From an uncultured Candidatus Saccharibacteria bacterium (GTDB lineage: Bacteria > Patescibacteriota > Minisyncoccia > Minisyncoccales > JANBVM01): a DNA stretch of 64,000 nt. The stretch spans positions 12 through 64,011 of the forward strand of contig CAZEQH010000003.1 of assembly GCA_964514375.1 (NCBI GenBank). The letters are read 5' to 3'. A model generated the notes under the pieces. It was not told where the DNA came from, searched no databases, and saw nothing but the letters and a program-made list of their open reading frames with translations. Position numbers and translations under genes: made by a program. Position 1 is the stretch's first letter, and every line of letters begins with the position of its first letter. Shown in pieces: positions 13,085 through 59,455 of the stretch.

Positions 13085-14074
13085 TTATTCGCAGCTTCCA
13101 CTGCTTGCAGTACCTTCATCCATTCCGAAACCGGCAGAAAAAGCGGTATCGGACAGAGTCTGAGAACAGGCCGCCGGAGGAGAATCAAAGGCGTTACAGA
13201 CTGCTTCTTTCAAGCTCTCAGGAGAACGGGAGGGCAGATTAACTACCGCATCGTTAATCACCAAGGTAGGAGACCCGCCTACTCCATACTGCTCGTTCAA
13301 ATCCTTCTGAACGTTGAACAGCGGATAATTTCCGCTCAACCAGGTGCTCTGGTCTGCAAACTGGCTGTAGATATCATACTGCTGGTCTGTTGCTTGGACG
13401 CAGCTGTCTATTTCACTTTTATTGATACCTGCTTGCTGAAAACATTTTTCTGAATCACCATCCTGGACAAAACAGGAAAGATAGTCTGTGTATTTGTCCT
13501 TTTCGTCCTGCTGGATACAGTATTGGTTAAGGTTTTCTGCAATCTCTTTCTCGCCGTGCATAATATAATCCACGAAATATACTCCCATATCGGCTTGGGC
13601 ACTTAATAGATTATAGACAGGGATAAACATCTTTTCAGCCTGAAGGCCGTAGGGACAATAGGACATCACGAAAAGCTTGACATCAGGCTTTGTCCTAGAC
13701 TGTACTTCGGTTGATGTGGCAGCCTGGCCGTTCCCCTGAACTGCTGCCATATCATACCCTTCCGGGAAAAGGTATTTGCCATCCTGGCTGATGTAAGAAT
13801 CGTATTCCTGGTCGTCTATTTTGATTGTTATTTTATATATGCTGCCTTCGTCATTCACCGATACCAGAGAAGCGCTCCTTCCCTGAGGCTCTAAAATGTT
13901 TTTGTTAATGAAATCGAGCGCCTTTTGGCCTGCATCCGCAGAAGATAAAACTTCAGAACTGCTCCCGGCGTTACTTCCCTTATTGAAAAAGAGGAAATAA
14001 CCTCCAATGAGCAGTACGCCGGCCAGGGCTACAACCATTAACGGTATTAATAGTTTTGGTTTTTCTTTGGTCAT
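13085..14074 (-). CDS. Membrane-anchored extracytoplasmic thioredoxin-fold protein (DsbA-like, CPYG)
   Basis: N-terminal TM anchor. FVMSYCPYGLQ motif in the C-terminal half, plus several further Cys. Confidence 0.55.
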   Translation of the reverse strand: MTKEKPKLLIPLMVVALAGVLLIGGYFLFFNKGSNAGSSSEVLSSADAGQKALDFINKNILEPQGRSASLVSVNDEGSIYKITIKIDDQEYDSYISQDGKYLFPEGYDMAAVQGNGQAATSTEVQSRTKPDVKLFVMSYCPYGLQAEKMFIPVYNLLSAQADMGVYFVDYIMHGEKEIAENLNQYCIQQDEKDKYTDYLSCFVQDGDSEKCFQQAGINKSEIDSCVQATDQQYDIYSQFADQSTWLSGNYPLFNVQKDLNEQYGVGGSPTLVINDAVVNLPSRSPESLKEAVCNAFDSPPAACSQTLSDTAFSAGFGMDEGTASSGSCE

Positions 14075-15404: not shown

Positions 15405-16562
15405 TTAAGCAAAAGCCAATAATTCAGGTTTTATCATCATAACCAGTCCCAAAACTAATAGTACCACTGCTGAAATCAGCTTTACGGCCTTAAGATATTT
15501 CTCGGAAACCTGGGTAATACGCAGAGTGGCAGCCGCCAGGAGAAAAATTATAAAATCGTCAAGCATATACAGAATAACGTATATAAAAAGATAGAAATAA
15601 TAAGAAGTGCTGGAAAGGTTAAAGGAGGTCAGTATTTTAATGAAAGCTAAGGGAAAGCCGAAGGAGCAAACCAGCTCCACAAGATTTATACCGGCTGCCA
15701 CCATGGATACTCCGGCCAGCATTAAAATCAGGGATTTCTTGGAATCGGTAAGGGCCTGCATTTTGGAAAACATTTTCTGCTCCCATCTGCTGAACCAGTT
15801 TCCTTTTCCCGCATCAACCTGACATACCTTGCAGATAATGCCGTGGAAGTAATCCTTCAGCATAAAAGCCGCAAACAGGATAATAATCAATCCCACTAAG
15901 TTGGTAATAAAGTTTATCTTCTCCAGTACCAAAAACAGGTTAAAAGAGGCCGTAATAAACACAAAATAAACTATTCCTGAAACAAGAATAAAAGTGCCCC
16001 CTATCCACAGGACCTTTTCCCTGGCGCCTGTAGCTATCAGCGAAGTGAGCAAAAAACCCAAAGCCACCATGGCACAGGCATTGAATCCATCCAACCCCCC
16101 CATCACTACCGCCAGCGTCAGAGGAGAAAGCCGCGACAGAGAAATCTTACCCAGTATAGGAACTTTAATCACGGCAGCGGAAGTGCTGGCTGAGCCTCCC
16201 AGACATTCTACCAGGCACGCTTCTATATTTTCTCCTATCTTTTTATCAAAACCGATAAAATATTTTTGAGGCGTGAACAGCACAGGAACCATTCCCCATT
16301 CCTCTTTGGGAACTCCGTACTCCTGGTAGAATTGAACCAGGATATCCTGATTTTCGGAATGATATGCTATTTCATATCCGTTTACTTTAAGTTCGGGATA
16401 CTTCTCCTCAAGCACATCCAGAAAAGCTCTTTCCTCCTTGCAGTGCGGGCAGGTACTACTGTAAAAGAAAGTAAATTCCAACGGCTCTGCAGCCGAAACC
16501 GCCTGCCCTACAAGAGCACTCATTAAAGTAATCACAAATAGAAATGGGATTATTTTTTTCAT
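15405..16562 (-). CDS. Signal peptide + thioredoxin-like domain (CPHC) fused to a CcdA/DsbD-like polytopic membrane domain
   Basis: FFYSSTCPHCKEE in the N-terminal third, then 6 or more TM helices including GLDGFNACAM, which is similar to the CcdA-family motif. Confidence 0.6.
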   Translation of the reverse strand: MKKIIPFLFVITLMSALVGQAVSAAEPLEFTFFYSSTCPHCKEERAFLDVLEEKYPELKVNGYEIAYHSENQDILVQFYQEYGVPKEEWGMVPVLFTPQKYFIGFDKKIGENIEACLVECLGGSASTSAAVIKVPILGKISLSRLSPLTLAVVMGGLDGFNACAMVALGFLLTSLIATGAREKVLWIGGTFILVSGIVYFVFITASFNLFLVLEKINFITNLVGLIIILFAAFMLKDYFHGIICKVCQVDAGKGNWFSRWEQKMFSKMQALTDSKKSLILMLAGVSMVAAGINLVELVCSFGFPLAFIKILTSFNLSSTSYYFYLFIYVILYMLDDFIIFLLAAATLRITQVSEKYLKAVKLISAVVLLVLGLVMMIKPELLAFA

Positions 16563-26173: not shown

Positions 26174-27676
26174 TTAAATTACTTTTCTTCTTAAAAAGGT
26201 GGGTTTTTCCCAGAGCTCCTCTTTGGATATTATTTCCGCTTCCTCTTTCTCCTTATCCCTCTTAATCTGAAGGGCATTTTTCCTTACCCTCTGCTTTTCT
26301 TTTTTTTCTTCTACAGACGGCTCACTCTCACTTGGAGCGGATTTTGGGGAAATATTTTTTATTTTTACCTCTATTTTTCCTTTTTTCGCCTCCTCTGCCG
26401 CGGCCTGCCTTCTCCTCTTTTTTTTCTTTGTCCCTCTCTTTTTCGTTTTAATCTTCTCTGACTTTTTCTTTCTCTCAGGTCGGGGAACGGGCCGAACAGT
26501 CCCTTCTGCCTTCTTCTCCTCCTTCTGCTTTTTAGGAGTTTTCCTCTTTTTGGCCGGCTTTTTCTTAGGTAAACTTTTGCCCGCCTTCTTACCTTTTCCC
26601 TTCAAAAAACCCCTCGCCCTGCAACTCGTTGCCAATAATGTCACTTTAATATGGGGACCCTTCTTGATGTTAGATATTCCAAAGATAATTCTGGCCTCCT
26701 TGTGGGCCTTCTCTGCGATAATTCCGGAAATCTGATTTACTTGAGACAAAGAAAGGTCTTTTTTGCCGGAAATATTAAATAGTATACCTCTGGCGCCCCC
26801 TATGCTGTAGGGATACAATGGAGAGCTTATCACCCTGCTTATCATCTCTTCTTCCTTTTCCCTACCCAAATTCACGGAACTAAGATAGGTAAGCTTTCCC
26901 CTTCTGCTGAAAACGGTCCTCAAGTCTGCAAAATCAATGTTTATCATGCCGGGCTCATATATTATCTCTATCAAGCTCTGTATTGATTCTGACAATTTCT
27001 TGTTTATGGCAGAAAGCGCGCTGTTTAAGGGCGCCGTCCTCTCTATGATTTGGAAAATTCTTTCGTTGGGGATTACCGAGAAAGCATTAACCCTCCTCTT
27101 GACCTTTCTTAAGGAAGTTCTGGCTATCTCCATTTTTTTCTCTCCCTCAAACTCAAAGGGAAGAGTAAAAATACCGTAGGTGAGATTACCCATGTCTCTT
27201 GATATTTTGGCAAAAACAGGAGCCGCCCCAGAGCCTAACCCTCCTCCCAGACAGGCCACTAAAATGACAAAATCCTGCCCCTTTAATATCTCTTTTATCC
27301 TTTCCCTCTCTTTATTAGCGGCAGCCTCTCCTATTTCAGGATCCATGCCGGTTCCCAAGCCGTGGGTAAATTCTTTGCCGAAATGAAACTTAGAAATCTT
27401 CCGGGGAAGTCTCTTTAATGCCCTTACGTCGCTGTTGGCGGCGTAAAATGAAGCACCCTTTACGCTCTGGGCTATTTCGGAAACAATGGAACTTCCTCCT
27501 CCTCCTATGCCTATCAGTCTCACCTTGATCCTTTTGAGTTCATCTGGTTTCATTTTCTTTTTGGACAGCTCTTTTGCAGCCTTGTTTTTTACTGCCGGTT
27601 TCCGAAGAGGTTTTTTCCTCTTGGCTACATTCTTTTTCAGGTTCTTTTTTGAAGTTTTGATTGTCTTTTTAGCCAT
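26174..27676 (-). CDS. ftsZ: Cell division GTPase FtsZ with Lys-rich N- and C-terminal extensions
   Basis: IGIGGGGSSIV and GLGTGMDPEIG...GGGLGSGAAP tubulin-signature region. The start is set at MAKKTIK (27676). The track ORF runs to 27757, overlapping the upstream gene. Confidence 0.85.
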   Translation of the reverse strand: MAKKTIKTSKKNLKKNVAKRKKPLRKPAVKNKAAKELSKKKMKPDELKRIKVRLIGIGGGGSSIVSEIAQSVKGASFYAANSDVRALKRLPRKISKFHFGKEFTHGLGTGMDPEIGEAAANKERERIKEILKGQDFVILVACLGGGLGSGAAPVFAKISRDMGNLTYGIFTLPFEFEGEKKMEIARTSLRKVKRRVNAFSVIPNERIFQIIERTAPLNSALSAINKKLSESIQSLIEIIYEPGMINIDFADLRTVFSRRGKLTYLSSVNLGREKEEEMISRVISSPLYPYSIGGARGILFNISGKKDLSLSQVNQISGIIAEKAHKEARIIFGISNIKKGPHIKVTLLATSCRARGFLKGKGKKAGKSLPKKKPAKKRKTPKKQKEEKKAEGTVRPVPRPERKKKSEKIKTKKRGTKKKKRRRQAAAEEAKKGKIEVKIKNISPKSAPSESEPSVEEKKEKQRVRKNALQIKRDKEKEEAEIISKEELWEKPTFLRRKVI

Positions 27677-27731
27677 TGTTTTAGTATAAGCCGTTAAGAT
27701 TATTAGGTCAATTAATGGTTTCTTGTTTAAA

Positions 27732-28601
27732 TTAGCCCTTATTGAATTTTTCTTCAAGCGCTTTCAGACGTTCTTTCAGCTCTATCATTTTTAATTCCCT
27801 GCCTGTAGCCAGCTTATTGAATTTCTCCAGCTCTTCCATTTTGACCTCCAGTTCCTTTTTCCTTTCCTCAAGCTCCATGGTTCTCTCTTTTACCTTGTCT
27901 TTAAGATTTTCCGAGAGGTCCTCCAGTTCTTCGGTCCTCGCCCTCACCTTAATTTCCAGGGTTGTTTTCTGTTCTTCCAAAGCTTCGCTGATTCTTTCCA
28001 GTTCAACGCTTTTCCTCTTCAAGATATCCGTAAAAAGATTAGCCGCCACTCCGATGCCAAAAAAAGTGGCTCCGGCTAACAAAATGTTATTAGTTACGTA
28101 TTTGAAATTTTTATAAAGAGGAAAACCTAAATCAAAGTAAGCATGAAAAGGCACCAACCCAGAGTAAGGCAGAGCCACTAGAAGGGCATAGCTTATAGTC
28201 GTCAAGGCGCAGACAGCCAAGGCTTTTTTTCTCGGCAGTACAATACTGGCGTAAACTACCGGGAACAGAAAGAAAACTGAACCCATCCATTCCACTCCTC
28301 CCGCCAGGTAGACTATCGCAGTAATAGACAGAAGTTCAATAAAAACATCGTAGAAAAAGTACAGGCTTTCTATGGTTTTGGCCTTAGTTTGCTTCTTCAC
28401 CAGCATTCTAAAAGCAAAAGCCGATAATAAATAGAAAGACAGCACCGAAAGTATCAGGTTTACGTTTTCATAAAACGAAAGCAAGCCTGTCAGCTTCATC
28501 AGAAAAACAGCTGCCAGAAAAGCAACCAGAGTGACCTCTCTTGGCAAAAAGGTTGCAGAAACTCTAGCCAGGATATCCTTGAATTCTTCCCGATGGGTCA
28601 T
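27732..28601 (-). CDS. Polytopic membrane protein with C-terminal coiled coil (unknown function)
   Basis: About 6 predicted TM helices followed by 90 aa of E/K-rich heptads. Located immediately upstream of ftsZ. Confidence 0.5.
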   Translation of the reverse strand: MTHREEFKDILARVSATFLPREVTLVAFLAAVFLMKLTGLLSFYENVNLILSVLSFYLLSAFAFRMLVKKQTKAKTIESLYFFYDVFIELLSITAIVYLAGGVEWMGSVFFLFPVVYASIVLPRKKALAVCALTTISYALLVALPYSGLVPFHAYFDLGFPLYKNFKYVTNNILLAGATFFGIGVAANLFTDILKRKSVELERISEALEEQKTTLEIKVRARTEELEDLSENLKDKVKERTMELEERKKELEVKMEELEKFNKLATGRELKMIELKERLKALEEKFNKG

Positions 28602-32468: not shown

Positions 32469-32906
32469 TCAAGACTGGCTGACCCAAAACACCTTCTTGT
32501 CTTTTGTCCACTTTATAACACTGTCTTTTAGGGCTACAGGAAAAACATCTTCTTCGGCAAAATCCTCCATCTCAAGGAAGAAAAAGTCCAGATGGTCTTC
32601 CCGGCTCTTATCGGCAGCATTCTCGGCTTCGACCTGAAAAACCAGATTAAGCTCGTGGTGAAATTCTCCGTCTTCGCGGAATAAATTCTCCACGGCTCCT
32701 AAAAATGAGTTACTTTTGATATCGAGGTTCAGTTCCTCTTTTAATTCCCGTTCCAGCGCCTTTTCCGCCTGCTCTCCAAAATCAACGTGTCCTCCGGGGA
32801 AAAAGTAATAGTCTTTTCCTTTTCTCCTGCATACCAGAATTCTTCCTCCCTGTTGGATGACAGCTCTAACACAAAGTTCGAAATTTTTCTCAAAATTTTT
32901 GTCCAT
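32469..32906 (-). CDS. NUDIX hydrolase
   Basis: Nudix box GGHVDFGEQAEKALERELKEELNL. Confidence 0.85.
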   Translation of the reverse strand: MDKNFEKNFELCVRAVIQQGGRILVCRRKGKDYYFFPGGHVDFGEQAEKALERELKEELNLDIKSNSFLGAVENLFREDGEFHHELNLVFQVEAENAADKSREDHLDFFFLEMEDFAEEDVFPVALKDSVIKWTKDKKVFWVSQS

Positions 32907-40629: not shown

Positions 40630-41082
40630 TTAAATGTTTTTAAATTTTAATACCTCAAAACCTTTTTTAATATAAGCTTTGACGTTGGGAGGATATTCGA
40701 AATCATTAATGTCTTCCTCTGAAATCCACTTAATATCTATTGTGTCTTCCAGTGGCCTTGCCTCTCCTGATTTCCAATGGCACAGAAAAAGCAACATTAT
40801 TACATGATGTCCTGTAGAACGAATAAAAGTGTTATTAGACAGGAGAACGACATCATTATTAATTTCAATGCCCGTTTCCTCCAATATCTCTCTGTGTAAC
40901 GTTTTTTCAATAATATTCCAAACGTTTCCCTCTGTGCGGTCCACTTTACCTCCGGGTATACTCCATCTGCCCGGCTCATGGCTTTCTCCGAAGCTGCGCC
41001 GGGAAATCAAAATCCTACCGTCCTTCTCTACAACGGCATTGACCAACACGATATGCGTTTGGCCTTTTGCTAAATCAGCCAT
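40630..41082 (-). CDS. NUDIX hydrolase
   Basis: Nudix box PGGKVDRTEGNVWNIIEKTLHREILEETGI. Start set at MADLAKG (41082). The track ORF extends to 41142. Confidence 0.8.
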   Translation of the reverse strand: MADLAKGQTHIVLVNAVVEKDGRILISRRSFGESHEPGRWSIPGGKVDRTEGNVWNIIEKTLHREILEETGIEINNDVVLLSNNTFIRSTGHHVIMLLFLCHWKSGEARPLEDTIDIKWISEEDINDFEYPPNVKAYIKKGFEVLKFKNI

Positions 41083-41204
41083 ACTATTCCATTTTAGCAG
41101 AAAATAGTCTGCTGAGTTAAGAATAAAAAAAATGGGTGCCATTAAAAATAAGCACCCTGATTACTTCTTTAAGAAAGGCATCGTATTAAAATTCTTTACC
41201 AATT

Positions 41205-42284
41205 CTATTCTCGTTTTGGCACAGGATAAACGCCTGCCCATTTTTTCTCTCCCTTTTTGGCCCTTGTAATTTTAATAACGCTTTCTATTCTGGCTATTTC
41301 ATCATCTTCTCTTTTTGCAACACGGTCTAATGCGTCCTCAATTGTCGGGACCTCAGGCGTGGGTTTGAAATTACCTTTGCGGCATATTTTTTTACCGCTT
41401 TTTAAAGTAAATATGACTTTGTATACTCCCTCGGCACTGTGGGATTTTTTGCCTTTTGGTTTTAACTTGCCAATAAACTTACTCCCGTCTATAAAATCAA
41501 TGGTGAATTCCGATGTCGTTCCTGTTAATAGCATCTTGAATTTATCGATAGCATCCTGTATCCACAACTCCTTATCGTCCAAAGGACGAGGCATTTCGCC
41601 AAAATAATTCTTATGTTCATCCCAAACGGTTCCGTCATCCCAATAGACTATACGATGTTTTTTGTCTTCTCCGCATAAAAGCATACCCATACAGGTTTTT
41701 ATGGTCGGAAAACCATCATAATCCCTTACCACAAACTTACGATTAAAGCGGAAGATTGGGTCTTCAGCCATGTATTCAGAAAAAACAAAGTCACCAATGA
41801 TTATTTGCTCGCCAAAAGCATAAAACCAAGGGCTAAGCCCGTAGCAAGCAACTCTACGGATAAAGCCTTCCTCTTCAGTTATCCGTTTTGACTTACCGAA
41901 ACCAGCGCTCCAATTTTTTTCCCAAGCAGAAATTGCATTCCCAAGAGTTGAAAACTCACAAAATTCAGAACCGCCACAATTGTTGTATTCATGAATTACA
42001 TAGCCGCATCTTCCCTCTGGCGGATTCTTAATTTCCAAAGCCTCGATATAACCAAACGGACCTCCAGCATATTTGTGCTGTTCAATATCAAACCGCGTAT
42101 ATCTGCCAAATCCTCCATGTCCGACGTTAACTTCCTTGGTGATGGGGATTTCAATGGTTCTAATATTCTCTAAAAATTCTTTTACCTTATCAACGTCTTC
42201 TGAACGGCAGGAAAATTCAACCAATTGTCCGATACCAGTCTTTCCTTCGCCATAAGTATAAGACCTAAATTTATCTTCACTCAC
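41205..42284 (-). CDS. Hypothetical soluble protein (359 aa)
   Basis: Long clean ORF with no TM segments and no recognisable motif. First gene after a strong terminator. Confidence 0.55.
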   Translation of the reverse strand: MSEDKFRSYTYGEGKTGIGQLVEFSCRSEDVDKVKEFLENIRTIEIPITKEVNVGHGGFGRYTRFDIEQHKYAGGPFGYIEALEIKNPPEGRCGYVIHEYNNCGGSEFCEFSTLGNAISAWEKNWSAGFGKSKRITEEEGFIRRVACYGLSPWFYAFGEQIIIGDFVFSEYMAEDPIFRFNRKFVVRDYDGFPTIKTCMGMLLCGEDKKHRIVYWDDGTVWDEHKNYFGEMPRPLDDKELWIQDAIDKFKMLLTGTTSEFTIDFIDGSKFIGKLKPKGKKSHSAEGVYKVIFTLKSGKKICRKGNFKPTPEVPTIEDALDRVAKREDDEIARIESVIKITRAKKGEKKWAGVYPVPKRE

Positions 42285-44873: not shown

Positions 44874-45948
44874 TTATTCTTTGAGCCTTATCTCTGCCTG
44901 GACAAACTCTTCCAGGTCTCCGTCCAGTACTTTTTCCACCTGGGTCGTCTCTACTCCAGTCCTAACGTCTTTGACCAGTTTGTAGGGATGAAGAACATAA
45001 TTCCTTATCTGGTTTCCCCAACTGGCTGAGACCCTTCCTCCTTTAATCTGAGACACGGCTGTTTTCCGTTTTTTTTGATAATAATCGTAAATCCTGGAAT
45101 AGAGAAGCTCCATGGCCTTCTCCCGATTTTGGACCTGTGACCGTTCCGACTGACAGGAAGCCGCTATGCCTGTTGGCAGATGGCTAATCCTGACAGCTGT
45201 TTCCCTCTTGTTGACGTACTGTCCTCCGGGACCGGAAGCCCGGTAAAAATCGGTTTTCAGGTCTTCCTCTTTTATATTTATGTCTGACTTGGAAAAGTCT
45301 TTAATCTTGGGAGTAATTTCAACCAGGCAGAAAGAGGTATGGCGCAGACTCTTGGCAGAAAAAGGGGAAATCCTTACCAGCCGGTGCACTCCGCTTTCCT
45401 TTTTAAGCAGGCCGTAGGCATATTTACCCATCACTTCAAGGACAGCTGTTTTGATTCCAATTCTGCCTTCAGGGCCACCTCCTTCTCCGAACGATTGGTG
45501 AAGGATTGTCGCCTTGAACCTTTTTATTTGGCAGTACCTTTCGTACATCCTCAGCAGCATAGCCGCCCAGTCTTCAGCATCCTGCCCTCCGGCTCCCGAA
45601 TAAATGGAAAGAAGTGCTCCGCCTTCGTCGTATTTTCCGGAAAAAAACAGCATCGTTTCCTTCTCGGTAATCTTTGCCGCAAGGCTTTTCAATTCCGTTT
45701 CGTTCCCTTCTTTTAATTCAGTTATTCTTTTTTGAAGTTCCCTAAAATCTTCGGTCTCTTCTTTCAGCTCGTTGAACTCCTGGGAAAATTTTACCGCCTT
45801 TTCCTTGTCCTGCCAGAGAGCAGGGTCCTGCATTTCCTCTTCCAGCTCTTTTAATCTCTTTTCTTTAGCGGCAAAGTCAAAGACGGTCCGCCAAAAGGCG
45901 GATTTTATCCTGCAGTTCTTTGACTTTTCCCGTTTGCTCTTCTTCCAT
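44874..45948 (-). CDS. prfB: Peptide chain release factor 2, expressed via programmed +1 frameshift
   Basis: ATG at 45948. 23 codons (MEEEQTGKVKELQDKIRLLADRL) end at CTT TGA C (45882..45876). The +1 frame continues DFAAKEKRLKELEEE-MQDPALW into the 319-aa track ORF. SPF and GGQ motifs are present. Confidence 0.9.
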
Positions 45949-52959: not shown

Positions 52960-54109
52960 CTGAATTTAACGCTGCAATGCCAGGCAGTTTATCTCCGGCC
53001 AAAAATTCCAGCATGGCCCCTCCTCCAGTCGATAGAAAGTCGAATCTGCCGGTCATACCAAACTGGTCAATGGCAGAAACCGTCTCCCCGCCGCCCGCCA
53101 CTTTAAAAGCAGAATGATTTCTGGTAATCGCCTCTGCTATATCCCTGGTCCCCTTTTCAAACCTCTCATCTTCGTGCATACCCAGAGAACCGTTCCATAA
53201 AATGGTTTTAGCGGATTCTATTATCCTTTTGAAAATTCTTCTGGTATAGGGGCCTATATCGTAAACCGCCTCCTCCTTCCTCAAGGTGCCCAACCCGGCT
53301 TCACGATAATATTTTTCTTTCGGGTCTTTGAGTGCTATCACCCCGTCCACAGGCAAGTGAAGTTTCGGATCCATAATATCAATCTCGTCCAGCATCTTTA
53401 TACCGGAAACGTCCCGGCCAATGATTATCTTCTTCTCGGCAAACAGTATCTCGCCTAGTTTACTCCCCAGGAGCACGTGGTCTGCTATCTTCAGGATGTT
53501 GAGGATAGTCTTTATCTTGGTTTCAATCTTTATCCCCCCGATGACGGCCACAAAGGGATGTTCTGGTTTTTCCAACAGAGACGTAAAGATTTCAATTTCT
53601 TTTTCCAGTAAAAAGCCCGGCGCCTTCATACAGGGAAAATTATTAGCTACCCCTACTATTGAGGCATGCGCTCTGTGGCAGGCCGAGAAGGCCTCATTAA
53701 CATAAACATCTCCCATTTTCGATATTTCTCTGGCAAACACCGCCTCGTTTGCCTTCTCTCCATCATGAAATCTTAAATTTTCAAGCAGAATTACCTGACC
53801 AGGTTCCATTTTCCTCGTTGTTTCCAAAGCTCCTTTGCTTGGATAGTCGTCGATGAACCCCACCCTTAACTTCAGCAACTCCTCAAGTCTGGGCAGAATG
53901 TACTGCAGGCTTACCTTCTTATCCCTGGTTTCCAAATGGCTCATCAAGATAACCTTAGCTTTCTCCTTTATCAGGTACTGTATGGTAGGAAGCGCCTTAA
54001 CCATTCTAAAATCATCTAGAATCTTGTTATCATCAGAGAGCGGGAGATTGAAGTCGCACCTCACCAGTGCCCTTTTGTTTTTTACGGCCAAGTCCTTTAG
54101 TTTTTTCAT
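52952..54109 (-). CDS. pgk: Phosphoglycerate kinase
   Basis: RCDFNLPL N-terminal motif and C-terminal STGGGAMLEFLAG. Confidence 0.95.
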   Translation of the reverse strand: MKKLKDLAVKNKRALVRCDFNLPLSDDNKILDDFRMVKALPTIQYLIKEKAKVILMSHLETRDKKVSLQYILPRLEELLKLRVGFIDDYPSKGALETTRKMEPGQVILLENLRFHDGEKANEAVFAREISKMGDVYVNEAFSACHRAHASIVGVANNFPCMKAPGFLLEKEIEIFTSLLEKPEHPFVAVIGGIKIETKIKTILNILKIADHVLLGSKLGEILFAEKKIIIGRDVSGIKMLDEIDIMDPKLHLPVDGVIALKDPKEKYYREAGLGTLRKEEAVYDIGPYTRRIFKRIIESAKTILWNGSLGMHEDERFEKGTRDIAEAITRNHSAFKVAGGGETVSAIDQFGMTGRFDFLSTGGGAMLEFLAGDKLPGIAALNSDD

Positions 54110-55782
54110 TGTTCCTCCTTTTTAAGCGCCTTAACTAAGGCTTTTTTAAGCTCGTCTATGTCAACCTTCTTCTTGGGTTTTTTGACGGGCTTTTCCTTTT
54201 CTGATTTATTTTTGGAAGGGGAAAAGGATACCGGTTCCAACTGGCTGGCTTTCTCCAGAGAAATGGTGCTTACATTCTCCTGCTGTTCTATCTTTTTGAG
54301 ACAGGGCTTACAGTATACCGGCCTGACCCCATCCGGCTTGAAAGTAACCTTGGTATCTTTTCCGCACATAGCACACTGGGCGTCGTAGAGAGTGATCTGC
54401 CTTTCCGGAACAGTTTTTACCTGTTTAGCTGAAGAGACCGGCTTCTTTTCTTCAATCGTCTCTTCCATCAGAACTCCGCTCCAGCGGTTTATCTTATCTT
54501 CCACCAGTCCTCTTTCTACTCCATACCTTTCCCTGGAAACCTTGATAATTTTTTCCGTGCTGGAAGGTTCTGTCACGGCGAACGGCGGCAGGGTCTTGGC
54601 GGAAAACGGGCGGCCGGCTATACCGTCCACCATTAATTTAATATAGACGTTGTATTTTCCTAAATTCACCAAATCCTCTGCCGTCAGTTCGGGAATGAAT
54701 TCCTTCTCCAAATATTCTGCATCTTCCGCTCCCACTCTGAAAGTGATAATAGTGCCTACATTTCCGAAAATCGCATCCCTTACCCTGGTGCTTCTTCCGT
54801 TAGGCGTCATCTCCTCAAGCTGGGCAATATATTGGTTGGCTAACGTTAAAGAAAGCCTGTATTTTCTTGCTTCAGACAGTATGGAAGCAAAAGCCTCGGT
54901 GGCGAAATTTTGAAATTCGTCCACATACAGGAAAAAATCCTTTCTTTTCGCCTCCGGTATGTCAACACGGGACATGGCGGCCAACTGGAGTTTGGTAATC
55001 AAAAGAGCTCCCAACAGCTTGGAATTATCCTCTCCCATCTTTCCCTTGGAAAGATTGGCAATAAGAATCTTGCCGTCATCCATCATCTTCCTCATGTCGA
55101 TCTTAGACTTCACCTGGCCGATGATGTTCCTTATCAATGGATTGGCAATGAGCTGGCCTATTTTGTTCTGAATGGCGGCGGTCGCCTCCACTTCGTACCT
55201 CTGGGTATAGCGGGCGAATTCATTCACCCAAAAAGATTTTACCACAGGGTCTCTTATCTTCTGCACTATTTTTTTACGGAATTCCGCGTCAGCCAGCATC
55301 CTGTTAACTCCCAACAACGTTGAGTTAGGATACTCCAGAAGGGCCATAATGGCGTTGCTTAAGATATATTCCATCCTGGCTGACCACACGTCCGGCCACA
55401 TCTTCTTGAATACCTCCATCAGTCCTGAAGAAACCAAGTGCTTGTATTCCGAACCCACATTTTCCATAACATTAAAAGCAATGGGATACTTTATGTCAGA
55501 CGGATTAAAATAAACAACATCGTTTATCCTGCTGGAAGGTATGGAGTTTAAAACTTCTTCTGCCGCCTCACCGTGAGGGTCAATAAAACCTACTCCCCTC
55601 CCGGCCTTGATGTCCTGGATAATCATGTTGGTTACCATGGCCGTCTTTCCCATGCCTGTTTTTCCCACAACATAAACATGCCGGCGCCTGTCGTCGGCCT
55701 TGATGCCTACACTCTCTTTCTGGTCGCGAAAAGTAGTTTCCGCAAAAAATACTATGGCTTCTTCTTCGTTTTTTTTGGCCAT
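54106..55782 (-). CDS. TraD/VirD4-like (type IV coupling protein / FtsK-HerA superfamily) P-loop ATPase with C-terminal zinc ribbon
   Basis: Walker A VVGKTGMGKTAM and Walker B FFLYVDEFQNF. LTLANQY...TIITFRVG resembles T4CP/TraG-D C-terminal motifs. The tail is CAMCGKDTKVTFKPDGVRPVYCKPC. No TM anchor of its own. Confidence 0.7.
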   Translation of the reverse strand: MAKKNEEEAIVFFAETTFRDQKESVGIKADDRRRHVYVVGKTGMGKTAMVTNMIIQDIKAGRGVGFIDPHGEAAEEVLNSIPSSRINDVVYFNPSDIKYPIAFNVMENVGSEYKHLVSSGLMEVFKKMWPDVWSARMEYILSNAIMALLEYPNSTLLGVNRMLADAEFRKKIVQKIRDPVVKSFWVNEFARYTQRYEVEATAAIQNKIGQLIANPLIRNIIGQVKSKIDMRKMMDDGKILIANLSKGKMGEDNSKLLGALLITKLQLAAMSRVDIPEAKRKDFFLYVDEFQNFATEAFASILSEARKYRLSLTLANQYIAQLEEMTPNGRSTRVRDAIFGNVGTIITFRVGAEDAEYLEKEFIPELTAEDLVNLGKYNVYIKLMVDGIAGRPFSAKTLPPFAVTEPSSTEKIIKVSRERYGVERGLVEDKINRWSGVLMEETIEEKKPVSSAKQVKTVPERQITLYDAQCAMCGKDTKVTFKPDGVRPVYCKPCLKKIEQQENVSTISLEKASQLEPVSFSPSKNKSEKEKPVKKPKKKVDIDELKKALVKALKKEEQ

Positions 55783-55788
55783 GATCGT

Positions 55789-57165
55789 TTATTCTTCCTT
55801 GGGCAAATCGGGAGCCGGTTTCCTCCTGGATTCTATCCTGGACACACCAGGCACGGGTGACACCTCCCATGATGGGAAATGATAAAGAGATGCCATCTCC
55901 TCTATATTCAATATGAACTTTCCCGGTCCCGGTGATCTTGGAAAGTAAGGAGGCACCCTGATAAGATAATTCCTGAATAGTTTTCTCTGTCTCAGATACA
56001 TTCTCCTGGGGCGGAGCAAATTCATAGGCAAAAACCAGGACTTGTGTATCTTGGTGAGATTTATGGCGGGGATCAGGGTGTTCAGGTTTTCTGTGGCATA
56101 ACTTCCGAAAAAGGCAAAAGCCAGCCTAAGCTTGGATTTCTGCCAGTATCCCCTCTTACCTGAAAATACAAATCTGATGTTGGTGGAAAAGCCCGGCTTA
56201 GATATTTTTCTTTCAACCGCCTCAATCGTATCTCGTTCTCCGGGAGTCAACCTCATCTCAGGGGCAAAATATGTTTCCTGAGCGGTCTTTTCCACGGTGG
56301 GAGTCTCGGGCACCTTGCCGGTCACCAGAAAATCCATCGCTTCAAATACCATGGGCCTGAATTTCATTTTTTCCGTACCCCCCGCAGACACCTCTCTCCT
56401 GGCCAGTTTGTCCCTCAACTGTTTGCCGAGATCAATCCAATTGCTCTCATTCTGCGTTAAGGGAGTACAGGTCATTTGTATCCAGAAGTGTTCCTTGGGC
56501 CCCACCACGCTGAGAGCCTCCAAGAGGTTTGCCACCGGATCTATCTTTTGTTCCGGAAGCTCAGTTTCTCTCTCAAAATCTCTATAGGTAAGAAGAGGGT
56601 AGGCGTTTTCTTCGGGTTTATCCTTTAAGAATTTGTAACTTGCTCCCCATAAATCCCAATCCTCGTTAGGAATATCCTGCGGGACGGATTTGGTGTAATC
56701 ATCAACTTGAGTAATCTCAATGCTGGGAAACTCAGCATAAAAAGCGGATTTCACAGAATCTGCATATGCCTCGTGAACCCTGATATAAAAATGAACCTTT
56801 CCCTCAAAGGAAGCTATCTCGAAGGATATGGATGTCTGTATCTGCCCTTCTATCCATTTTTCCCACCAGTCAGGGGGTTGATAGATAGAACTATGCACGC
56901 TGTTCATTACCTTTTCCATGGCCCTCATCGGCTTGGGATTCTCCTTGGGTAATTTTATCTCATATAGAGTGGGCTGGTAAACCGTAACCAGCCAGTTTTC
57001 AATCCTCCACTGCTCCCAGAGAAATAAAAAAGGCTTTTGCAGTGCAAAAGGCAGTAAAAACCACCACCAGTTTCTGATTATCTGCCAGAGAGGCCCGATG
57101 ACCGTATCGATGGCGGTTTGTTGAATTTCAGGATAAATCCCCAACAAAAAAGTAAAAGAAAACAT
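55789..57165 (-). CDS. Membrane-anchored protein of unknown function, translationally coupled partner of the ATPase
   Basis: 458 aa. Trp-rich N-terminal TM segment(s) (IIRNWWWFLLPFAL), then a soluble domain. 6-nt gap to the ATPase and 3-nt gap from the upstream gene. Confidence 0.5.
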   Translation of the reverse strand: MFSFTFLLGIYPEIQQTAIDTVIGPLWQIIRNWWWFLLPFALQKPFLFLWEQWRIENWLVTVYQPTLYEIKLPKENPKPMRAMEKVMNSVHSSIYQPPDWWEKWIEGQIQTSISFEIASFEGKVHFYIRVHEAYADSVKSAFYAEFPSIEITQVDDYTKSVPQDIPNEDWDLWGASYKFLKDKPEENAYPLLTYRDFERETELPEQKIDPVANLLEALSVVGPKEHFWIQMTCTPLTQNESNWIDLGKQLRDKLARREVSAGGTEKMKFRPMVFEAMDFLVTGKVPETPTVEKTAQETYFAPEMRLTPGERDTIEAVERKISKPGFSTNIRFVFSGKRGYWQKSKLRLAFAFFGSYATENLNTLIPAINLTKIHKSWFLPMNLLRPRRMYLRQRKLFRNYLIRVPPYFPRSPGPGKFILNIEEMASLYHFPSWEVSPVPGVSRIESRRKPAPDLPKEE

Positions 57166-57168
57166 CTT

Positions 57169-58146
57169 TTAAGCCTCTTTTATGGTGTATCTACCTTCAG
57201 GGTTTCTTTCAAAGATATTGTTATTGCTTAGGTTCAGCAGTATGGTATTCTTTTTGATAATCCTCTGCTCTAAAACCTTATTGATAATTTCTTTTTTACC
57301 AAGGGGCTGTCCTGACTCTTTTAATACTTTCTCTATCACGTCCTTAACCTGTCCGGGATAATAACCCCATTCCGCAAGGGCGTAGATACCCCTGCCCACC
57401 AAAATAAATCTGTTGTCCTTTATCAGTTCATTATGAACGGTTTGTACGTGCCCCCCGTCTATCATCTGGGCTACCTTGGTAAAATGAAGAGGCCTTCCGG
57501 CCTTCTTTAAAGAGATGTAAGCCTTGTCTTTTACGCCCTTGGGATTGATTTCCGGCCAACGGGCAAGACCGTACAGTCCGGCATCGTTGCTCTGGATATT
57601 GCTGGCTGCCCCAAGATAAGAAGCCAACACCTTCTTGTCCACGGGAACATAGCCTTCAAGCTCAACCAACGGAACCGGCTCCTCTCTTTCTTCCAGTTTT
57701 TTCATCACCTCTTCCACAACTCTTTTGGCATGCAGAAGATTCTCTTTACTCAATATCCACAAATTATGAAAACCGTCTGCTTTATTAAACCTATTAATAT
57801 TACCATCCAGGTTCAAGAGGAAAAAAACCTCGTTTTTGCTGTCCTGGCCTCCCAACTCCTCCAATAGTTCGTTTTCGCTGCGCAGACCGCCGAATTTTTT
57901 TAAGCGCCTTTCAAAGTTTTCAAAAACTTTTTTATATTCTTTAGTATGGGATTTCACCTTCTTTATGGCAGAAACCTCTATCTGTCTTATTCTTTCCCTG
58001 GAAAGTCCAAAACTATTTCCTATAGACTCCAGGGTTTCTTTGGTCTGGCCGCCAAGACCAAAACGGCGAGATAAGATTTCTTTTTCTCGCTTTTTTAAAT
58101 TAGAAAGCAGTTCCGAACATATTTTTAGGTAATCAAATTTATTCAT
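57169..58146 (-). CDS. Sigma-70 region 4-like HTH fused to a HARE-HTH-like domain (DNA-binding protein)
   Basis: N-terminus LSRRFGLGGQTKETLESIGNSFGLSRERIRQIEVSAIKKV (sigma region 4 pattern). The C-terminal half GRPLHFTKVAQMI...FILVGRGIYALAEWGY resembles the HARE-HTH of RpoE-delta. Confidence 0.6.
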   Translation of the reverse strand: MNKFDYLKICSELLSNLKKREKEILSRRFGLGGQTKETLESIGNSFGLSRERIRQIEVSAIKKVKSHTKEYKKVFENFERRLKKFGGLRSENELLEELGGQDSKNEVFFLLNLDGNINRFNKADGFHNLWILSKENLLHAKRVVEEVMKKLEEREEPVPLVELEGYVPVDKKVLASYLGAASNIQSNDAGLYGLARWPEINPKGVKDKAYISLKKAGRPLHFTKVAQMIDGGHVQTVHNELIKDNRFILVGRGIYALAEWGYYPGQVKDVIEKVLKESGQPLGKKEIINKVLEQRIIKKNTILLNLSNNNIFERNPEGRYTIKEA

Positions 58147-58960: not shown

Positions 58961-59455
58961 TTAACCGAATCGCTGCCATTCGGTTTTTTTGCCCGTTCGT
59001 TGATTTTGAGCCATGGCTAATTCATCATAGATTCCATCAATCAATCGGTAGTTTTTTGCTTCTTCAAGGCTCACCCAGGCATACTTGTCTAATTCTTCCG
59101 GTTGTAACGTAATTTCTCCGGAGACATAATCTGCCATACATGATATTACTAAAGACGGACTTCCGTCTCCGTGTACGGTCGCCAGACTAGTAACGTAATA
59201 GATATTGTTTATCTCTATTCCCACTTCTTCTTTTACCTCGCGCCGCAGCGTTCTCTCCAGAACGTTGTACCAATAATGTTCAGTGTCTTTAGGCAGTTTT
59301 AAATAGTCGCTTGTTTCCATTTTACCGCCGGGCACCGTCCACATTCCAGGAAATCTCTTTTTATTTAAAGAACGTCTCGTAATCAAATATTTGCCGTCTT
59401 TTACGATAATGGCGGTAATTACCACTTCGTGCAGATACTGATTGCCTATGTCCAT
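58961..59455 (-). CDS. NUDIX hydrolase
   Basis: Nudix box PGGKMETSDY...LERTLRREVKEEVGI. Confidence 0.85.
   Translation of the reverse strand: MDIGNQYLHEVVITAIIVKDGKYLITRRSLNKKRFPGMWTVPGGKMETSDYLKLPKDTEHYWYNVLERTLRREVKEEVGIEINNIYYVTSLATVHGDGSPSLVISCMADYVSGEITLQPEELDKYAWVSLEEAKNYRLIDGIYDELAMAQNQRTGKKTEWQRFG

What the first reader, a model, noticed from the sequence alone, without database searches (positions are those of the whole stretch)
54106..57165. Orphan TraD/VirD4-like ATPase with zinc-ribbon tail and a coupled membrane partner, embedded in a housekeeping operon
Seen:
- The 558-aa protein has Walker A GKTGMGKT and Walker B YVDEFQNF, with overall resemblance to T4SS coupling proteins of the FtsK-HerA superfamily.
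- It has no TM segment of its own and ends in a CxxC...CxxC ribbon.
- It is preceded, with a 6-nt gap, by a 458-aa protein with a Trp-rich N-terminal membrane anchor and no recognisable domain.
- Both are wedged between a DNA-binding sigma-r4/HARE-HTH gene and pgk (4-nt overlap). The run continues into a RecJ-like nuclease and RNase HI.
- No VirB4, VirB6, relaxase, pilin or other T4SS/conjugation gene is present in the window.

Known: coupling proteins normally carry their own TM anchor and act with a full T4SS. Two-component membrane-protein + HerA/VirB4-like ATPase DNA import machines exist in archaea (the Ced system).

Inference: the anchor may be supplied in trans by the 458-aa protein, forming a minimal nucleic-acid translocation module. 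That could mean DNA uptake in an organism dependent on scavenged nucleotides. The adjacency to RecJ-like and RNase H nucleases fits nucleic-acid processing but could be coincidental.
Basis: partly seen in the sequence, partly recalled or inferred. Interest (0 to 1): 0.6.

Follow-up and report, generated by a model that had tools for sequence, protein, structure and literature searches.

The report
Split type IV coupling protein, CPR
Two adjacent genes in this Patescibacteria genome are the two halves of one type IV secretion "coupling" ATPase that is a single protein elsewhere, are highly conserved, and travel with a DNA-binding gene, giving a handle on what the secretion system of these tiny bacteria transports.

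Summary
The ORFs, Walker motifs, zinc ribbon, 6-nt gap and housekeeping context are all as described.

- **The partner has a family.** The 458-aa partner belongs to Pfam DUF8128. Its confident model resembles only the VirB4 (TrwK) N-terminal region.
- **The pair is one protein, split.** The two window proteins abut exactly on single-chain DUF8128–T4CP proteins (725–1,140 aa). These occur in other Patescibacteria, Bacillus phages, and Clostridium and Actinobacteria plasmids.
- **The fused form belongs to T4SS loci.** It sits beside a chromosomal VirB3/VirB4 locus in one Patescibacteria contig. It fills the coupling-protein slot of an Embleya plasmid T4SS.
- **The split pair is core and vertically inherited.** It is retained in 78 of 78 species-level relatives whose contigs extend far enough. 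The ATPase is as conserved as SecA. In 4 of 5 distant lineages the pair stays together, and in 4 of 5 a sigma-r4/HARE-HTH gene lies upstream, although the flanks differ.
- **"Orphan" applies to the locus only.** Four of five related genomes checked carry VirB4 elsewhere.

Best reading: a two-chain coupling protein, probably serving the Patescibacteria T4SS. A T4SS-independent, exapted DNA translocase is not excluded. A Ced-like import machine is not supported. I rate this a new variant of a known kind.

The parts
54106..55782 (-). T4CP (VirD4/TraD)-like P-loop ATPase, 558 aa: the motor half of the split protein
   Evidence: Pfam TrwB_AAD_bind 3.5e-10, T4SS-DNA_transf 4.5e-10, TraG-D_C 2.9e-6. 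Profile against PDB sequences: TrwB 1e-6, DotL 1.5e-3. Foldseek on a weak model: DotL 2e-7, Cagbeta 1e-4, TrwB 1e-4, VirB4 C-terminal domain 3e-3. Median 67.5% identity across 69 species.
55642..55665 (-). Walker A GKTGMGKT (aa 40-47)
   Evidence: Read from the translation. G40, K41, T42, G43, G45, K46 are invariant in 38 homologs.
54904..54927 (-). Walker B YVDEFQNF (aa 286-293)
   Evidence: Read from the translation. V287, D288, E289, F290, Q291, N292, F293 are invariant.
54292..54390 (-). CxxC-x17-CxxC treble-clef zinc ribbon (aa 465-497)
   Evidence: Pfam zf_Tbcl_2 1.6e-12, TIGR04272 8.5e-13. C470, C473, C491, C494 are invariant. Present in 4 of 5 split-type ATPases compared (the window's plus three of four others) and in P0515. 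Absent from all fused forms examined.
54109..54291 (-). Lys/Glu-rich C-terminal tail (aa 498-558)
   Evidence: Read from the translation. Low pLDDT apart from a terminal helix. Its function is inferred only.
55789..57165 (-). DUF8128 (PF26449) protein, 458 aa: the N-terminal half of the split protein, an N-terminal hydrophobic helical hairpin followed by an alpha/beta body with a VirB4-N-terminal-like fold
   Evidence: Homologs carry PF26449. AF2 model pLDDT 83, pTM 0.79. Foldseek PDB: the top 14 hits are all R388 TrwK/VirB4, E 2e-5 to 7e-4. BFVD: phage G gp156 3e-16, phage JL 2e-14, VirB4-like gp155 4e-6. hhalign to the gp156 N-terminal half: 96% probability, E 4e-9.
56983..57132 (-). Trp-rich hydrophobic helix-turn-helix (aa 12-61), putative membrane anchor
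   Evidence: Model helices 12-41 and 43-61. The equivalent segment in homologs reaches KD 1.5-2.0. It is missing from the T4SS-adjacent fused forms P0507 and P0486, which start at HMM position 63.
55873..55911 (-). Conserved junction motif LNIEEMASLYHFP (aa 419-431) just before the split point
   Evidence: E422, E423, A425, H429 are invariant. The same motif is found in the fused proteins (ILNIEELASIFHLP in P0445; LNVQEMSQFIHLP in gp156) upstream of their Walker A.
57169..58146 (-). Sigma70-region-4 + HARE-HTH DNA-binding protein, 325 aa: the conserved third gene of the split-type module
   Evidence: Pfam Sigma70_r4 5.6e-13, HARE-HTH 8e-8. Directly upstream in 80 of 80 relatives and in 4 of 5 distant lineages with different flanks. 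Full-length orthologs at 32-36% identity. Not found next to fused forms.

Best explanation
The two genes encode one type IV coupling protein (T4CP) made as two polypeptides.

**Architecture**
- The DUF8128 protein supplies the membrane-proximal half: a hydrophobic N-terminal hairpin plus an alpha/beta body with the fold of the VirB4 N-terminal domain.
- The 558-aa protein supplies the VirD4/TraD-type hexameric motor, extended by a zinc ribbon and a charged tail.

**Shown**
- The halves are collinear with, and abut on, single-chain homologs.
- The gene pair is tightly coupled, vertically inherited and under housekeeping-level constraint.
- Single-chain relatives sit in genuine T4SS loci.

**Inferred**
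- The two chains assemble at the membrane, with DUF8128 tethering and docking the motor much as VirB3 and the VirB4 N-terminal domain do for VirB4.
- The complex recruits and energises substrate transfer through the Patescibacteria MPF-FATA-like T4SS, which is encoded elsewhere, typically near dnaA.
- The zinc ribbon and tail, together with the co-transcribed sigma-r4/HARE-HTH protein, provide substrate recognition, plausibly of nucleic acid. This would be analogous to the TraD tail binding the DNA-binding protein TraM.
For: **Identity of the ATPase**
-.

**Fold of the partner**
- VirB4/TrwK only in PDB.
- Fused phage proteins and VirB4-like gp155 in BFVD.

**One protein split in two**
- PHROG 5156 covers both proteins.
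- PF26449 co-occurs with PF10412, PF02534 and PF12696 in single chains, including Patescibacteria proteins.
- The split-type DUF8128 HMM hits the N-terminal halves of fused CPR proteins at 1e-15 to 9e-43. Their ATPase halves are 38-49% identical to the window ATPase.
- Exact junction: 384|388 on P0445 and 384|383 on P0472.
- Walker A lies at residues 335-428 in fused forms, 451 in TrwK/VirB4 and 130 in TrwB.

**Link to T4SS**
- Fused P0507 is adjacent to PrgI/VirB3, VirB4 and Peptidase_M23, next to dnaA/dnaN.
- The Embleya plasmid cluster reads PrgI, VirB4, fused T4CP, Replic_Relax, NlpC/P60.
- Phage G gp155 (VirB4-like) lies next to gp156.
- Four of five related genomes that hold the module are VirB4-positive.

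**Conservation**
- 78 of 78 loci whose contigs extend far enough.
- 4 of 5 distant lineages.
- Identity comparable to SecA.
- Operon-tight junctions.

**Precedent**
- TMD-less T4CPs with an adjacent membrane partner (PMC7434980).
Against: - The split pair is never next to virB4 in any locus examined. The window has no T4SS gene.
- PMC12102498 reports VirD4-type T4CP homologs in more genomes (2,918) than VirB4 (2,417). It notes that the T4CP of S. epibionticum is dispensable although the T4SS is essential, and that relaxases are essentially absent from the Patescibacteria clade.
- SecA-like conservation and a housekeeping operon are unusual for a conjugation-type coupling protein.
- The L103 adjacency is a single contig with fragmented gene calls.
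- The VirB4-N-terminal similarity rests on Foldseek alone: TM 0.30-0.37, and no sequence-level signal.
- The ATPase model is poor (pLDDT 58).
- No physical interaction was tested.
Confidence: 0.55

Rival explanations
1. Exapted, T4SS-independent housekeeping translocase. The split DUF8128-ATPase complex, guided by the sigma-r4/HARE-HTH DNA-binding protein, acts as a membrane-tethered DNA pump. It would be FtsK-like in logic (anchor, motor, wHTH targeting module) and would work in chromosome handling or DNA trafficking without the T4SS channel.
For: - The ATPase is as conserved as SecA.
- The module always sits in housekeeping operons and never beside virB4.
- The DNA-binding gene co-travels with the split form only.
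- The zinc ribbon is gained only in split forms.
- The literature reports T4CP homologs in more genomes than VirB4, T4CP dispensability for T4SS-dependent growth in S. epibionticum, and explicitly raises exaptation (PMC12102498).
Against: - Close fused relatives (48% identity) lie in a T4SS locus.
- DUF8128 contributes at most one hydrophobic hairpin per chain, and no channel protein is encoded nearby.
- No FtsK_SpoIIIE profile hit for the window ATPase.
- The sigma-r4/HARE gene could equally be a general transcription factor kept in the operon for regulation.
- MAG incompleteness can explain VirB4-negative genomes.
Confidence: 0.27
2. One reading: a minimal two-component DNA-import machine, analogous to the archaeal Ced system, that scavenges nucleic acids for a nucleotide-auxotrophic cell.
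For: - Membrane partner plus FtsK/HerA-superfamily ATPase, with nucleic-acid enzymes nearby.
- Weak NCBIfam CedD P-loop hit, 4.6e-7.
- Patescibacteria depend on external nucleotides (PMC12857230).
Against: - The CedD score is 28.9 bits against a cut-off of 600, on 60 residues only.
- The ATPase is VirD4-type, not VirB4/HerA-type like CedB.
- There is no polytopic CedA-like pore.
- RecJ-like and RNase H adjacency disappears in distant lineages.
- In S. epibionticum, ComEC-dependent transformation is dispensable, so DNA import is not essential for nucleotide supply (PMC12857230).
Confidence: 0.08
3. A remnant or domesticated piece of a mobile element or defence system (MADS mad8-like or HerA-like NTPase), with no core cellular role.
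For: - PADLOC mad8 2.2e-18 and weak HerA hits.
- Relatives are abundant on phages and plasmids.
Against: - No other mad or defence genes, integrase, or compositional anomaly. GC content is 0.44-0.46, like the rest of the window.
- Vertical inheritance with SecA-level constraint across at least 80 species.
- Catalytic motifs are invariant.
Confidence: 0.03

Closest known systems
VirD4/TraD/TrwB-type type IV coupling proteins (T4CP)
   Same: P-loop motor with VirD4-type profiles above Pfam cut-offs. The best sequence and structure matches are TrwB, DotL and Cagbeta. Fused relatives occupy the T4CP slot of T4SS clusters.
   Different: - About 400 aa of N-terminal region with a VirB4-like fold, instead of a ~100-aa two-TM domain (Walker A at 335-428 against 130 in TrwB).
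- Encoded here as a separate gene.
- Chromosomal, vertically inherited, and far from virB4.
- C-terminal zinc ribbon.
T4CPs lacking a TMD that pair with an adjacent membrane protein (TraJ/TraI of pIP501; TraG-TraJ pairs)
   Same: A soluble T4CP motor whose membrane association is supplied by the product of the neighbouring gene (PMC7434980).
   Different: The known partners are small membrane proteins (about 200 aa, up to five TM helices). Here the partner is 458 aa, mostly cytoplasmic, VirB4-N-terminal-like, and demonstrably the detached N-terminal half of a single-chain ancestor or relative.
VirB4 (TrwK) with VirB3, and the Patescibacteria TrsD + VirB4 arrangement
   Same: - The same two-part layout: a membrane-associated N-terminal alpha/beta domain followed by a C-terminal RecA-like ATPase.
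- The DUF8128 model matches only TrwK in PDB.
- In Patescibacteria, a VirB4-N-terminal-like protein (TrsD) is also encoded separately, next to VirB4 (PMC12102498).
   Different: - The motor is VirD4-type: no AAA_10, P-loop_TraG or CagE hit.
- CONJscan-based screening does not call DUF8128 as TrsD or VirB3.
- No sequence similarity to VirB4 N-terminal regions.
PHROG 5156 / Bacillus phage G gp156 and SPO1-like phage ~900-aa proteins; C. botulinum pCLJ 800-aa 'ATP-binding protein'
   Same: The same DUF8128 + T4CP-like ATPase combination, in one chain.
   Different: Only 24-28% identical, located on mobile elements, no zinc ribbon, no sigma-r4/HARE neighbour, function unknown.
Archaeal Ced DNA-import system
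   Same: A membrane component plus an FtsK/HerA-superfamily ATPase, outside a full T4SS.
   Different: CedB is VirB4/HerA-like and CedA is a polytopic channel protein. Neither feature is met here.

Membership tests
T4CP (VirD4/TraD/TraG) | VirD4-type nucleotide-binding domain with Walker A/B | tested here: met
   PF10412 39.8 bits (cut-off 20.5) and PF02534 39.4 bits (cut-off 20.1). TrwB 1e-6 by profile. Motifs invariant.
T4CP (VirD4/TraD/TraG) | All-alpha domain inserted in the NBD | tested here: inconclusive
   A helical block at aa 111-235 lies between Walker A and B in the model, but pLDDT is low. The TrwB_AAD_bind alignment spans profile positions 7-320 of 387.
T4CP (VirD4/TraD/TraG) | N-terminal transmembrane domain in the same polypeptide | tested here: not met
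   No TM-grade segment in the ATPase (KD max 1.17). The hydrophobic hairpin is on the DUF8128 protein.
T4CP (VirD4/TraD/TraG) | Genetic association with a T4SS and/or relaxase | tested here: not met
   None in the window or in any split-type locus. The feature is met only for fused relatives. VirB4 is present elsewhere in 4 of 5 related genomes.
T4CP (VirD4/TraD/TraG) | Couples a substrate to the secretion channel | not testable with these tools
   Requires genetics or biochemistry.
Pfam DUF8128 (PF26449) | Match to the family model | tested here: met
   Precomputed PF26449 on most of the 120 listed homologs, including the closest one (P0001, 90% identical). The model is absent from my local Pfam copy, so the window protein itself could not be scored.
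TMD-less T4CP + adjacent membrane partner (pIP501 TraJ/TraI type) | Soluble T4CP with the membrane protein encoded next to it | tested here: met
   6-nt gap. Adjacency in 78 of 78 loci and in 4 of 5 distant lineages.
TMD-less T4CP + adjacent membrane partner (pIP501 TraJ/TraI type) | The partner is a small, mainly membrane-embedded protein | tested here: not met
   The partner is 458 aa with about 390 aa of soluble alpha/beta domains.
VirB4 | VirB4-specific ATPase profiles (AAA_10, P-loop_TraG, CagE_TrbE_VirB, TraC_F_IV) | tested here: not met
   None reported at E <= 0.01 for the window ATPase, whereas the Embleya, phage G and L103 VirB4 proteins hit them.
VirB4 | N-terminal domain fold preceding the ATPase | tested here: inconclusive
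Ced DNA-import system | CedB/CedD-type ATPase and a CedA polytopic membrane protein | tested here: not met
   NF053655 scores 28.9 bits against a cut-off of 600, on the P-loop only. No polytopic membrane gene is in the module.
FtsK/SpoIIIE | FtsK_SpoIIIE motor profile, multi-TM N-terminus, gamma wHTH domain | tested here: not met
   No PF01580 hit for the window ATPase. FtsK is a weak structural match (E 0.4).
HerA-NurA | HerA profile with a NurA nuclease partner | tested here: not met
   Only a marginal DUF87 hit (27.2 bits). HerA is a structural neighbour (2e-5), but no NurA is present, and T4CP profiles score higher.
MADS defence system (mad8) | mad8 together with the other mad genes in a defence locus | tested here: not met
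   mad8 hit 2.2e-18, but there are no other defence genes and the context is housekeeping.

The most novel reading that the evidence does not exclude
The DUF8128-T4CP lineage may be a surviving intermediate between VirB4 and VirD4: a coupling-type motor that still carries the VirB4-type N-terminal domain. In Paceibacteria it would have been split, given a zinc ribbon, and tied to a sigma-r4/HARE-HTH DNA-binding protein. The result would be a three-part, T4SS-independent housekeeping DNA translocase (anchor + motor + DNA-targeting module, FtsK-like in logic) that is a core function of this phylum.
Probability: 0.2. Interest if true: 0.8.

Novelty: new variant of a known kind. Interest (0 to 1): 0.5.

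Why it matters
The T4SS of Patescibacteria is essential for epibiotic growth in the one species tested so far (Saccharibacteria), and what it transports is unknown. In every T4SS the coupling protein selects the substrate.

- **What was known.** VirD4-like genes are known to be near-universal in the phylum, but scattered away from virB4 and unexplained (PMC12102498).
- **What this analysis adds about the protein.** At least one such lineage is really a two-part protein. It has a VirB4-like N-terminal module (DUF8128), and it exists in both fused and split forms.
- **The link to a T4SS.** The fused form can sit in the T4SS locus.
- **What marks the split form.** It is under housekeeping-level constraint. 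It is co-transcribed with a dedicated DNA-binding protein and carries a zinc ribbon.
- **Experimental consequences.** These results give concrete, testable partners for pull-downs, depletion and DNA-binding assays.
- **Wider implications.** DUF8128 now has a candidate role. The results also bear on how VirD4 evolved from VirB4.

Tried and rejected
- **ATPase model.** The AF2 model from a shallow (~70% identical) alignment was poor (pLDDT 58). I used it only for ranking fold neighbours.
- **PDB by sequence.** Sequence and profile searches of PDB with the partner found nothing.
- **tblastn of the partner.** No match in phages or plasmids. Relatives there were found only through profiles, structure and PF26449.
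- **DUF8128 against VirB4 N-terminal regions.** A broadened DUF8128 profile against TrwK, Embleya VirB4, phage G gp155 and L103 VirB4 or its 431-aa neighbour gave no signal.
- **Individual long forms.**
  - The Bradyrhizobium long form showed no DUF8128 similarity.
  - The Haladaptatus and Microcystis-phage long forms showed none either.
  - The Embleya, pCLJ and CP-51 matches are weak but collinear. For the CP-51 type there is structural support from phage JL.
- **Small ORFs upstream of fused CPR genes.** They have no Pfam hit and no similarity to the sigma-r4/HARE protein.
- **Table S3.** It is truncated in the held copy, so T4CP calls in the specific Nealsonbacteria genomes could not be read.
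- **Promoter and terminator scan.** Not above shuffle expectation, so uninformative beyond the lack of an obvious internal terminator.
- **Literature.** No paper mentions DUF8128. Searches on HARE-HTH plus sigma, and on CPR FtsK, gave nothing relevant. The CPR pilus preprint is unrelated.
- **Rejected readings.** Defence island or MGE remnant (context and conservation), HerA-NurA (no NurA), and FtsK membership (no profile hit).

Full report
**1. Observation**

The finding is accurately placed.
- The ATPase ORF is 54106-55782(-), 558 aa. The partner ORF is 55789-57165(-), 458 aa.
- A 6-nt gap separates the two genes. A 3-nt gap separates the partner from the upstream sigma-r4/HARE-HTH gene (57169-58146). 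The ATPase overlaps pgk by 4 nt.
- Walker A (aa 40-47) and Walker B (aa 286-293) are invariant across 38 homologs.
- The CxxC-x17-CxxC element (aa 470-494) matches zf_Tbcl_2 and TIGR04272. A charged 64-aa tail follows it.
- The downstream genes are PGK, a DHH/DHHA1 protein and RNase H.
- I scanned 47 ORFs, essentially every ORF of at least 140 aa on the coding strand. They encode only housekeeping functions: glycolysis, FtsZ, FtsEX, ThiI, MnmA, IscS/NifU, SecA, MurB, MurJ, LepA, release factors, ribosomal proteins and NUDIX hydrolases. No T4SS, relaxase, pilin or competence gene is present.
- Base composition is uniform.

**2. The ATPase**

Pfam places it with VirD4/TraD-type coupling proteins, above the gathering thresholds: TrwB_AAD_bind, T4SS-DNA_transf and TraG-D_C.
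- NCBIfam gives only sub-threshold hits to VirD4/TraD models. The CedD hit covers the P-loop only.
- A 38-sequence profile finds TrwB (1e-6) and DotL (1.5e-3) in PDB.
- The AF2 model is poor (pLDDT 58). Even so, its best neighbours are DotL, HerA, Cagbeta and TrwB, with the VirB4 C-terminal domain behind them and FtsK far behind.

**3. The partner**

The partner is not domain-less. Its homologs carry Pfam PF26449 (DUF8128), a model that my local Pfam copy lacks.
- The family has 2,350 clusters at 50% identity.
- A 40-sequence alignment gave a confident model (pLDDT 83, pTM 0.79). It shows an N-terminal helical hairpin (aa 12-61) followed by alpha/beta domains.
- The hairpin region is TM-grade in homologs (KD 1.5-2.0). 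It scores lower in the Trp-rich window protein.
- Against PDB, the 14 significant Foldseek hits are all R388 TrwK/VirB4 chains (2e-5 to 7e-4). After them comes a sharp drop to unrelated ferredoxin-like folds.
- Against BFVD, the best hits are phage G gp156, a phage JL 913-aa protein and a phage Slash protein (3e-16 to 7e-13). Next come the VirB4-like phage G gp155 (4e-6) and a 'type IV transporter component'.

**4. One protein in two pieces**

Several independent lines show that the pair corresponds to a single polypeptide elsewhere.
- PHROG 5156, an 824-position profile, matches the partner at its N-terminal part and the ATPase at positions 407-819.
- Phage G gp156 (825 aa) aligns to the partner profile with 96% probability over residues 44-247. 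It aligns to the ATPase over residues 380-773.
- A database search with gp156 shows PF26449 recorded together with PF10412, PF02534 and PF12696 in many single chains of 725-1,140 aa. Some are annotated as Berkelbacteria, Falkowbacteria, Saccharibacteria and Gottesmanbacteria.
- The N-terminal halves of these CPR proteins match the split-type DUF8128 HMM at 1e-15 to 9e-43.
- Their ATPase halves are 38-49% identical to the window ATPase. The figures are 28-32% for the phage G, Embleya and Bradyrhizobium forms and 40% for a stand-alone Sulfitobacter plasmid ATPase.
- The two window proteins abut on the fused chains: residues 48-384 and 388-807 of P0445, and 96-384 and 383-810 of P0472.
- The conserved motif LNxEE(L/M)ASxxHxP lies just upstream of the junction in both forms.
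- Walker A lies at residue 335-428 in the fused forms, at 451 in TrwK/VirB4 and at 130 in TrwB/VirD4. The family thus combines a VirB4-like layout with a VirD4-like motor.

**5. Conservation and the real unit**

- In 80 species-representative genomes, the order sigma-r4/HARE, DUF8128, ATPase, PGK, DHH, RNase H is kept wherever the contig extends. The ATPase is present in 78 of 78 such loci.
- That sample is phylogenetically narrow (Paceibacteria), so I examined five lineages whose DUF8128 is only about 28% identical to the window protein.
- DUF8128 and the ATPase are adjacent in four of the five: L093, L095, L097 and L098. In L096, YceG follows DUF8128 instead.
- The sigma-r4/HARE gene is directly upstream in four of the five: L093, L095, L096 and L097.
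- Everything else around the module differs. The neighbours include SecDF, LeuRS, DnaX, RpiB/Rpe/transketolase, a Big_13 protein and thymidine phosphorylase.
- The sigma-r4/HARE proteins are full-length orthologs at 32-36% identity.
- The RecJ-like and RNase H neighbours are therefore lineage-specific synteny. The sigma-r4/HARE gene is part of the conserved module.
- The ATPase (median 67.5% identity) is as constrained as SecA (65.5%) and much more than PGK (43.8%). DUF8128 and the sigma-r4/HARE protein are at about 48%.
- The zinc ribbon occurs in 4 of 5 split-type ATPases compared and in P0515, and in none of the fused forms.
- Fused forms lack a sigma-r4/HARE neighbour.

**6. Link to type IV secretion**

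- On a ~1-Mb contig, the fused homolog P0507 (48% identical to the window ATPase) lies divergently beside PrgI/VirB3, VirB4 (AAA_10/P-loop_TraG) and a Peptidase_M23 gene, next to dnaN and dnaA.
- PMC12102498 reports that many Patescibacteria classes keep their T4SS genes near dnaA and dnaN, so this context fits.
- The gene calls on that contig are fragmented, probably by assembly frameshifts.
- On an Embleya plasmid, the long form (812 aa) occupies the T4CP slot of a cluster reading PrgI, VirB4, T4CP, Replic_Relax, NlpC/P60.
- In phage G, the fused gene follows a VirB4-like gene. In CP-51, a Replic_Relax gene follows it.
- Other fused CPR copies sit in housekeeping contexts.
- Per Table S1 of PMC12102498, four of five Nealsonbacteria genomes that hold the module are VirB4-positive. 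The exception is an incomplete assembly.
- The same paper counts 5,713 VirD4-type homologs in 2,918 of 3,035 genomes, only 148 of them near virB4.
- It also notes that the S. epibionticum T4CP is dispensable, although the T4SS is essential.
- It finds almost no relaxases and raises exaptation as a possibility.
- Its Table S3 shows solitary 't4cp1' calls with no TrsD or VirB3 call beside them. DUF8128 therefore went unrecognised by that screen.
- No paper in the library mentions DUF8128.

**7. Mechanism**

- **Shown:** a VirD4-type motor and a DUF8128 protein that together equal one fused protein; tight operonic coupling; vertical inheritance under strong constraint; fused relatives in T4SS loci.
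- **Inferred, assembly:** the two chains assemble at the membrane. DUF8128 would tether and dock the hexameric motor, in the way VirB3 and the VirB4 N-terminal domain do for VirB4.
- **Inferred, substrate:** the zinc ribbon and tail, plus the sigma-r4/HARE protein, would recognise the substrate, plausibly nucleic acid.
- **Precedent:** trans-supplied anchors are known for T4CPs (TraJ/TraI of pIP501, TraG-TraJ pairs; PMC7434980), so the principle is not new.
- **New here:** the size and fold of the partner, its origin as a detached half, the chromosomal core status, and the third gene.
- **Confidences:**
  - About 0.55 for a two-chain T4CP serving the Patescibacteria T4SS.
  - About 0.27 for a T4SS-independent, exapted translocase.
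  - About 0.08 for Ced-like DNA import. In favour of discounting it, ComEC-dependent uptake is dispensable in S. epibionticum (PMC12857230).
  - About 0.03 for a defence or MGE remnant.

**8. Verdict**

This is a new variant of a known kind: a split T4CP with a VirB4-like N-terminal module.
- T4CP homologs in this phylum, and trans-anchored T4CPs in general, are already known.
- The DUF8128 link, the fused/split relationship and the conserved three-gene module were not found in the searchable literature.
- They give direct experimental handles on the unexplained T4SS biology of Patescibacteria.
- Interest is moderate (0.5).

Noticed in passing
window 2331-3056 (+) and 44874-45833 (-): There are two release-factor genes. 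The + strand ORF starts at position 100 of the PCRF profile, so its 5' part probably lies in another frame. That would fit a prfB-type programmed +1 frameshift. It is also one of very few + strand genes in the window.
   Followed up: no
window 13085-14074, 15405-16562, 27732-28601, 41205-42284 (all -): Four sizeable ORFs (289-385 aa) have no Pfam hit at E <= 1e-5.
   Followed up: no
window 1-64000: Almost every gene is on the - strand, and GC skew is negative in every 2-kb bin. The window therefore lies on one replichore with co-oriented genes.
   Followed up: no
window 32469-32906, 40630-41142, 58961-59455: Three separate NUDIX hydrolase genes lie within 64 kb.
   Followed up: no
L104 2432-4921 and 5535-8348 (also L105): Berkelbacteria carry two fused DUF8128-T4CP paralogs in tandem (829 and 937 aa). 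Each is preceded by a small ORF with no Pfam hit, and SecDF is nearby.
   Followed up: partly
L096 5868-9253: In one distant lineage, the sigma-r4/HARE and DUF8128 genes are followed by YceG instead of the ATPase. The motor gene must be elsewhere or lost.
   Followed up: no
L103 1-7122: dnaA, dnaN and VirB4 are each called as two fragments on this ~1-Mb contig. These are probably frameshift errors of the assembly. This is a caveat for the T4SS-adjacent example.
   Followed up: no
L090 6932-8119 (Sulfitobacter mediterraneus plasmid NZ_CP081110.1): A stand-alone 395-aa ATPase without an N-terminal domain, partner or zinc ribbon is the closest non-CPR relative (40% identity, E 1e-90). It sits beside transposases, which suggests horizontal transfer.
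   Followed up: partly
L008 2753-6314; L091 5777-9295: The long DUF8128-like T4CP is followed by a Replic_Relax (PF13814) gene both in Bacillus phage CP-51 and on an Embleya plasmid. This recurrent pairing may mark the DNA-processing partner of the fused forms.
   Followed up: partly
window 54106-55782 (-): The PADLOC mad8 model (MADS defence system) matches the ATPase at 2.2e-18 over aa 27-382. mad8 therefore seems to be a short T4CP-like NTPase of the same broad family.
   Followed up: no
window 26174-27757 (-): The FtsZ ORF is unusually long (527 aa, TTG start as listed). The Tubulin domain begins only at aa 79 and a long C-terminal extension follows. The true start may be further downstream.
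   Followed up: no
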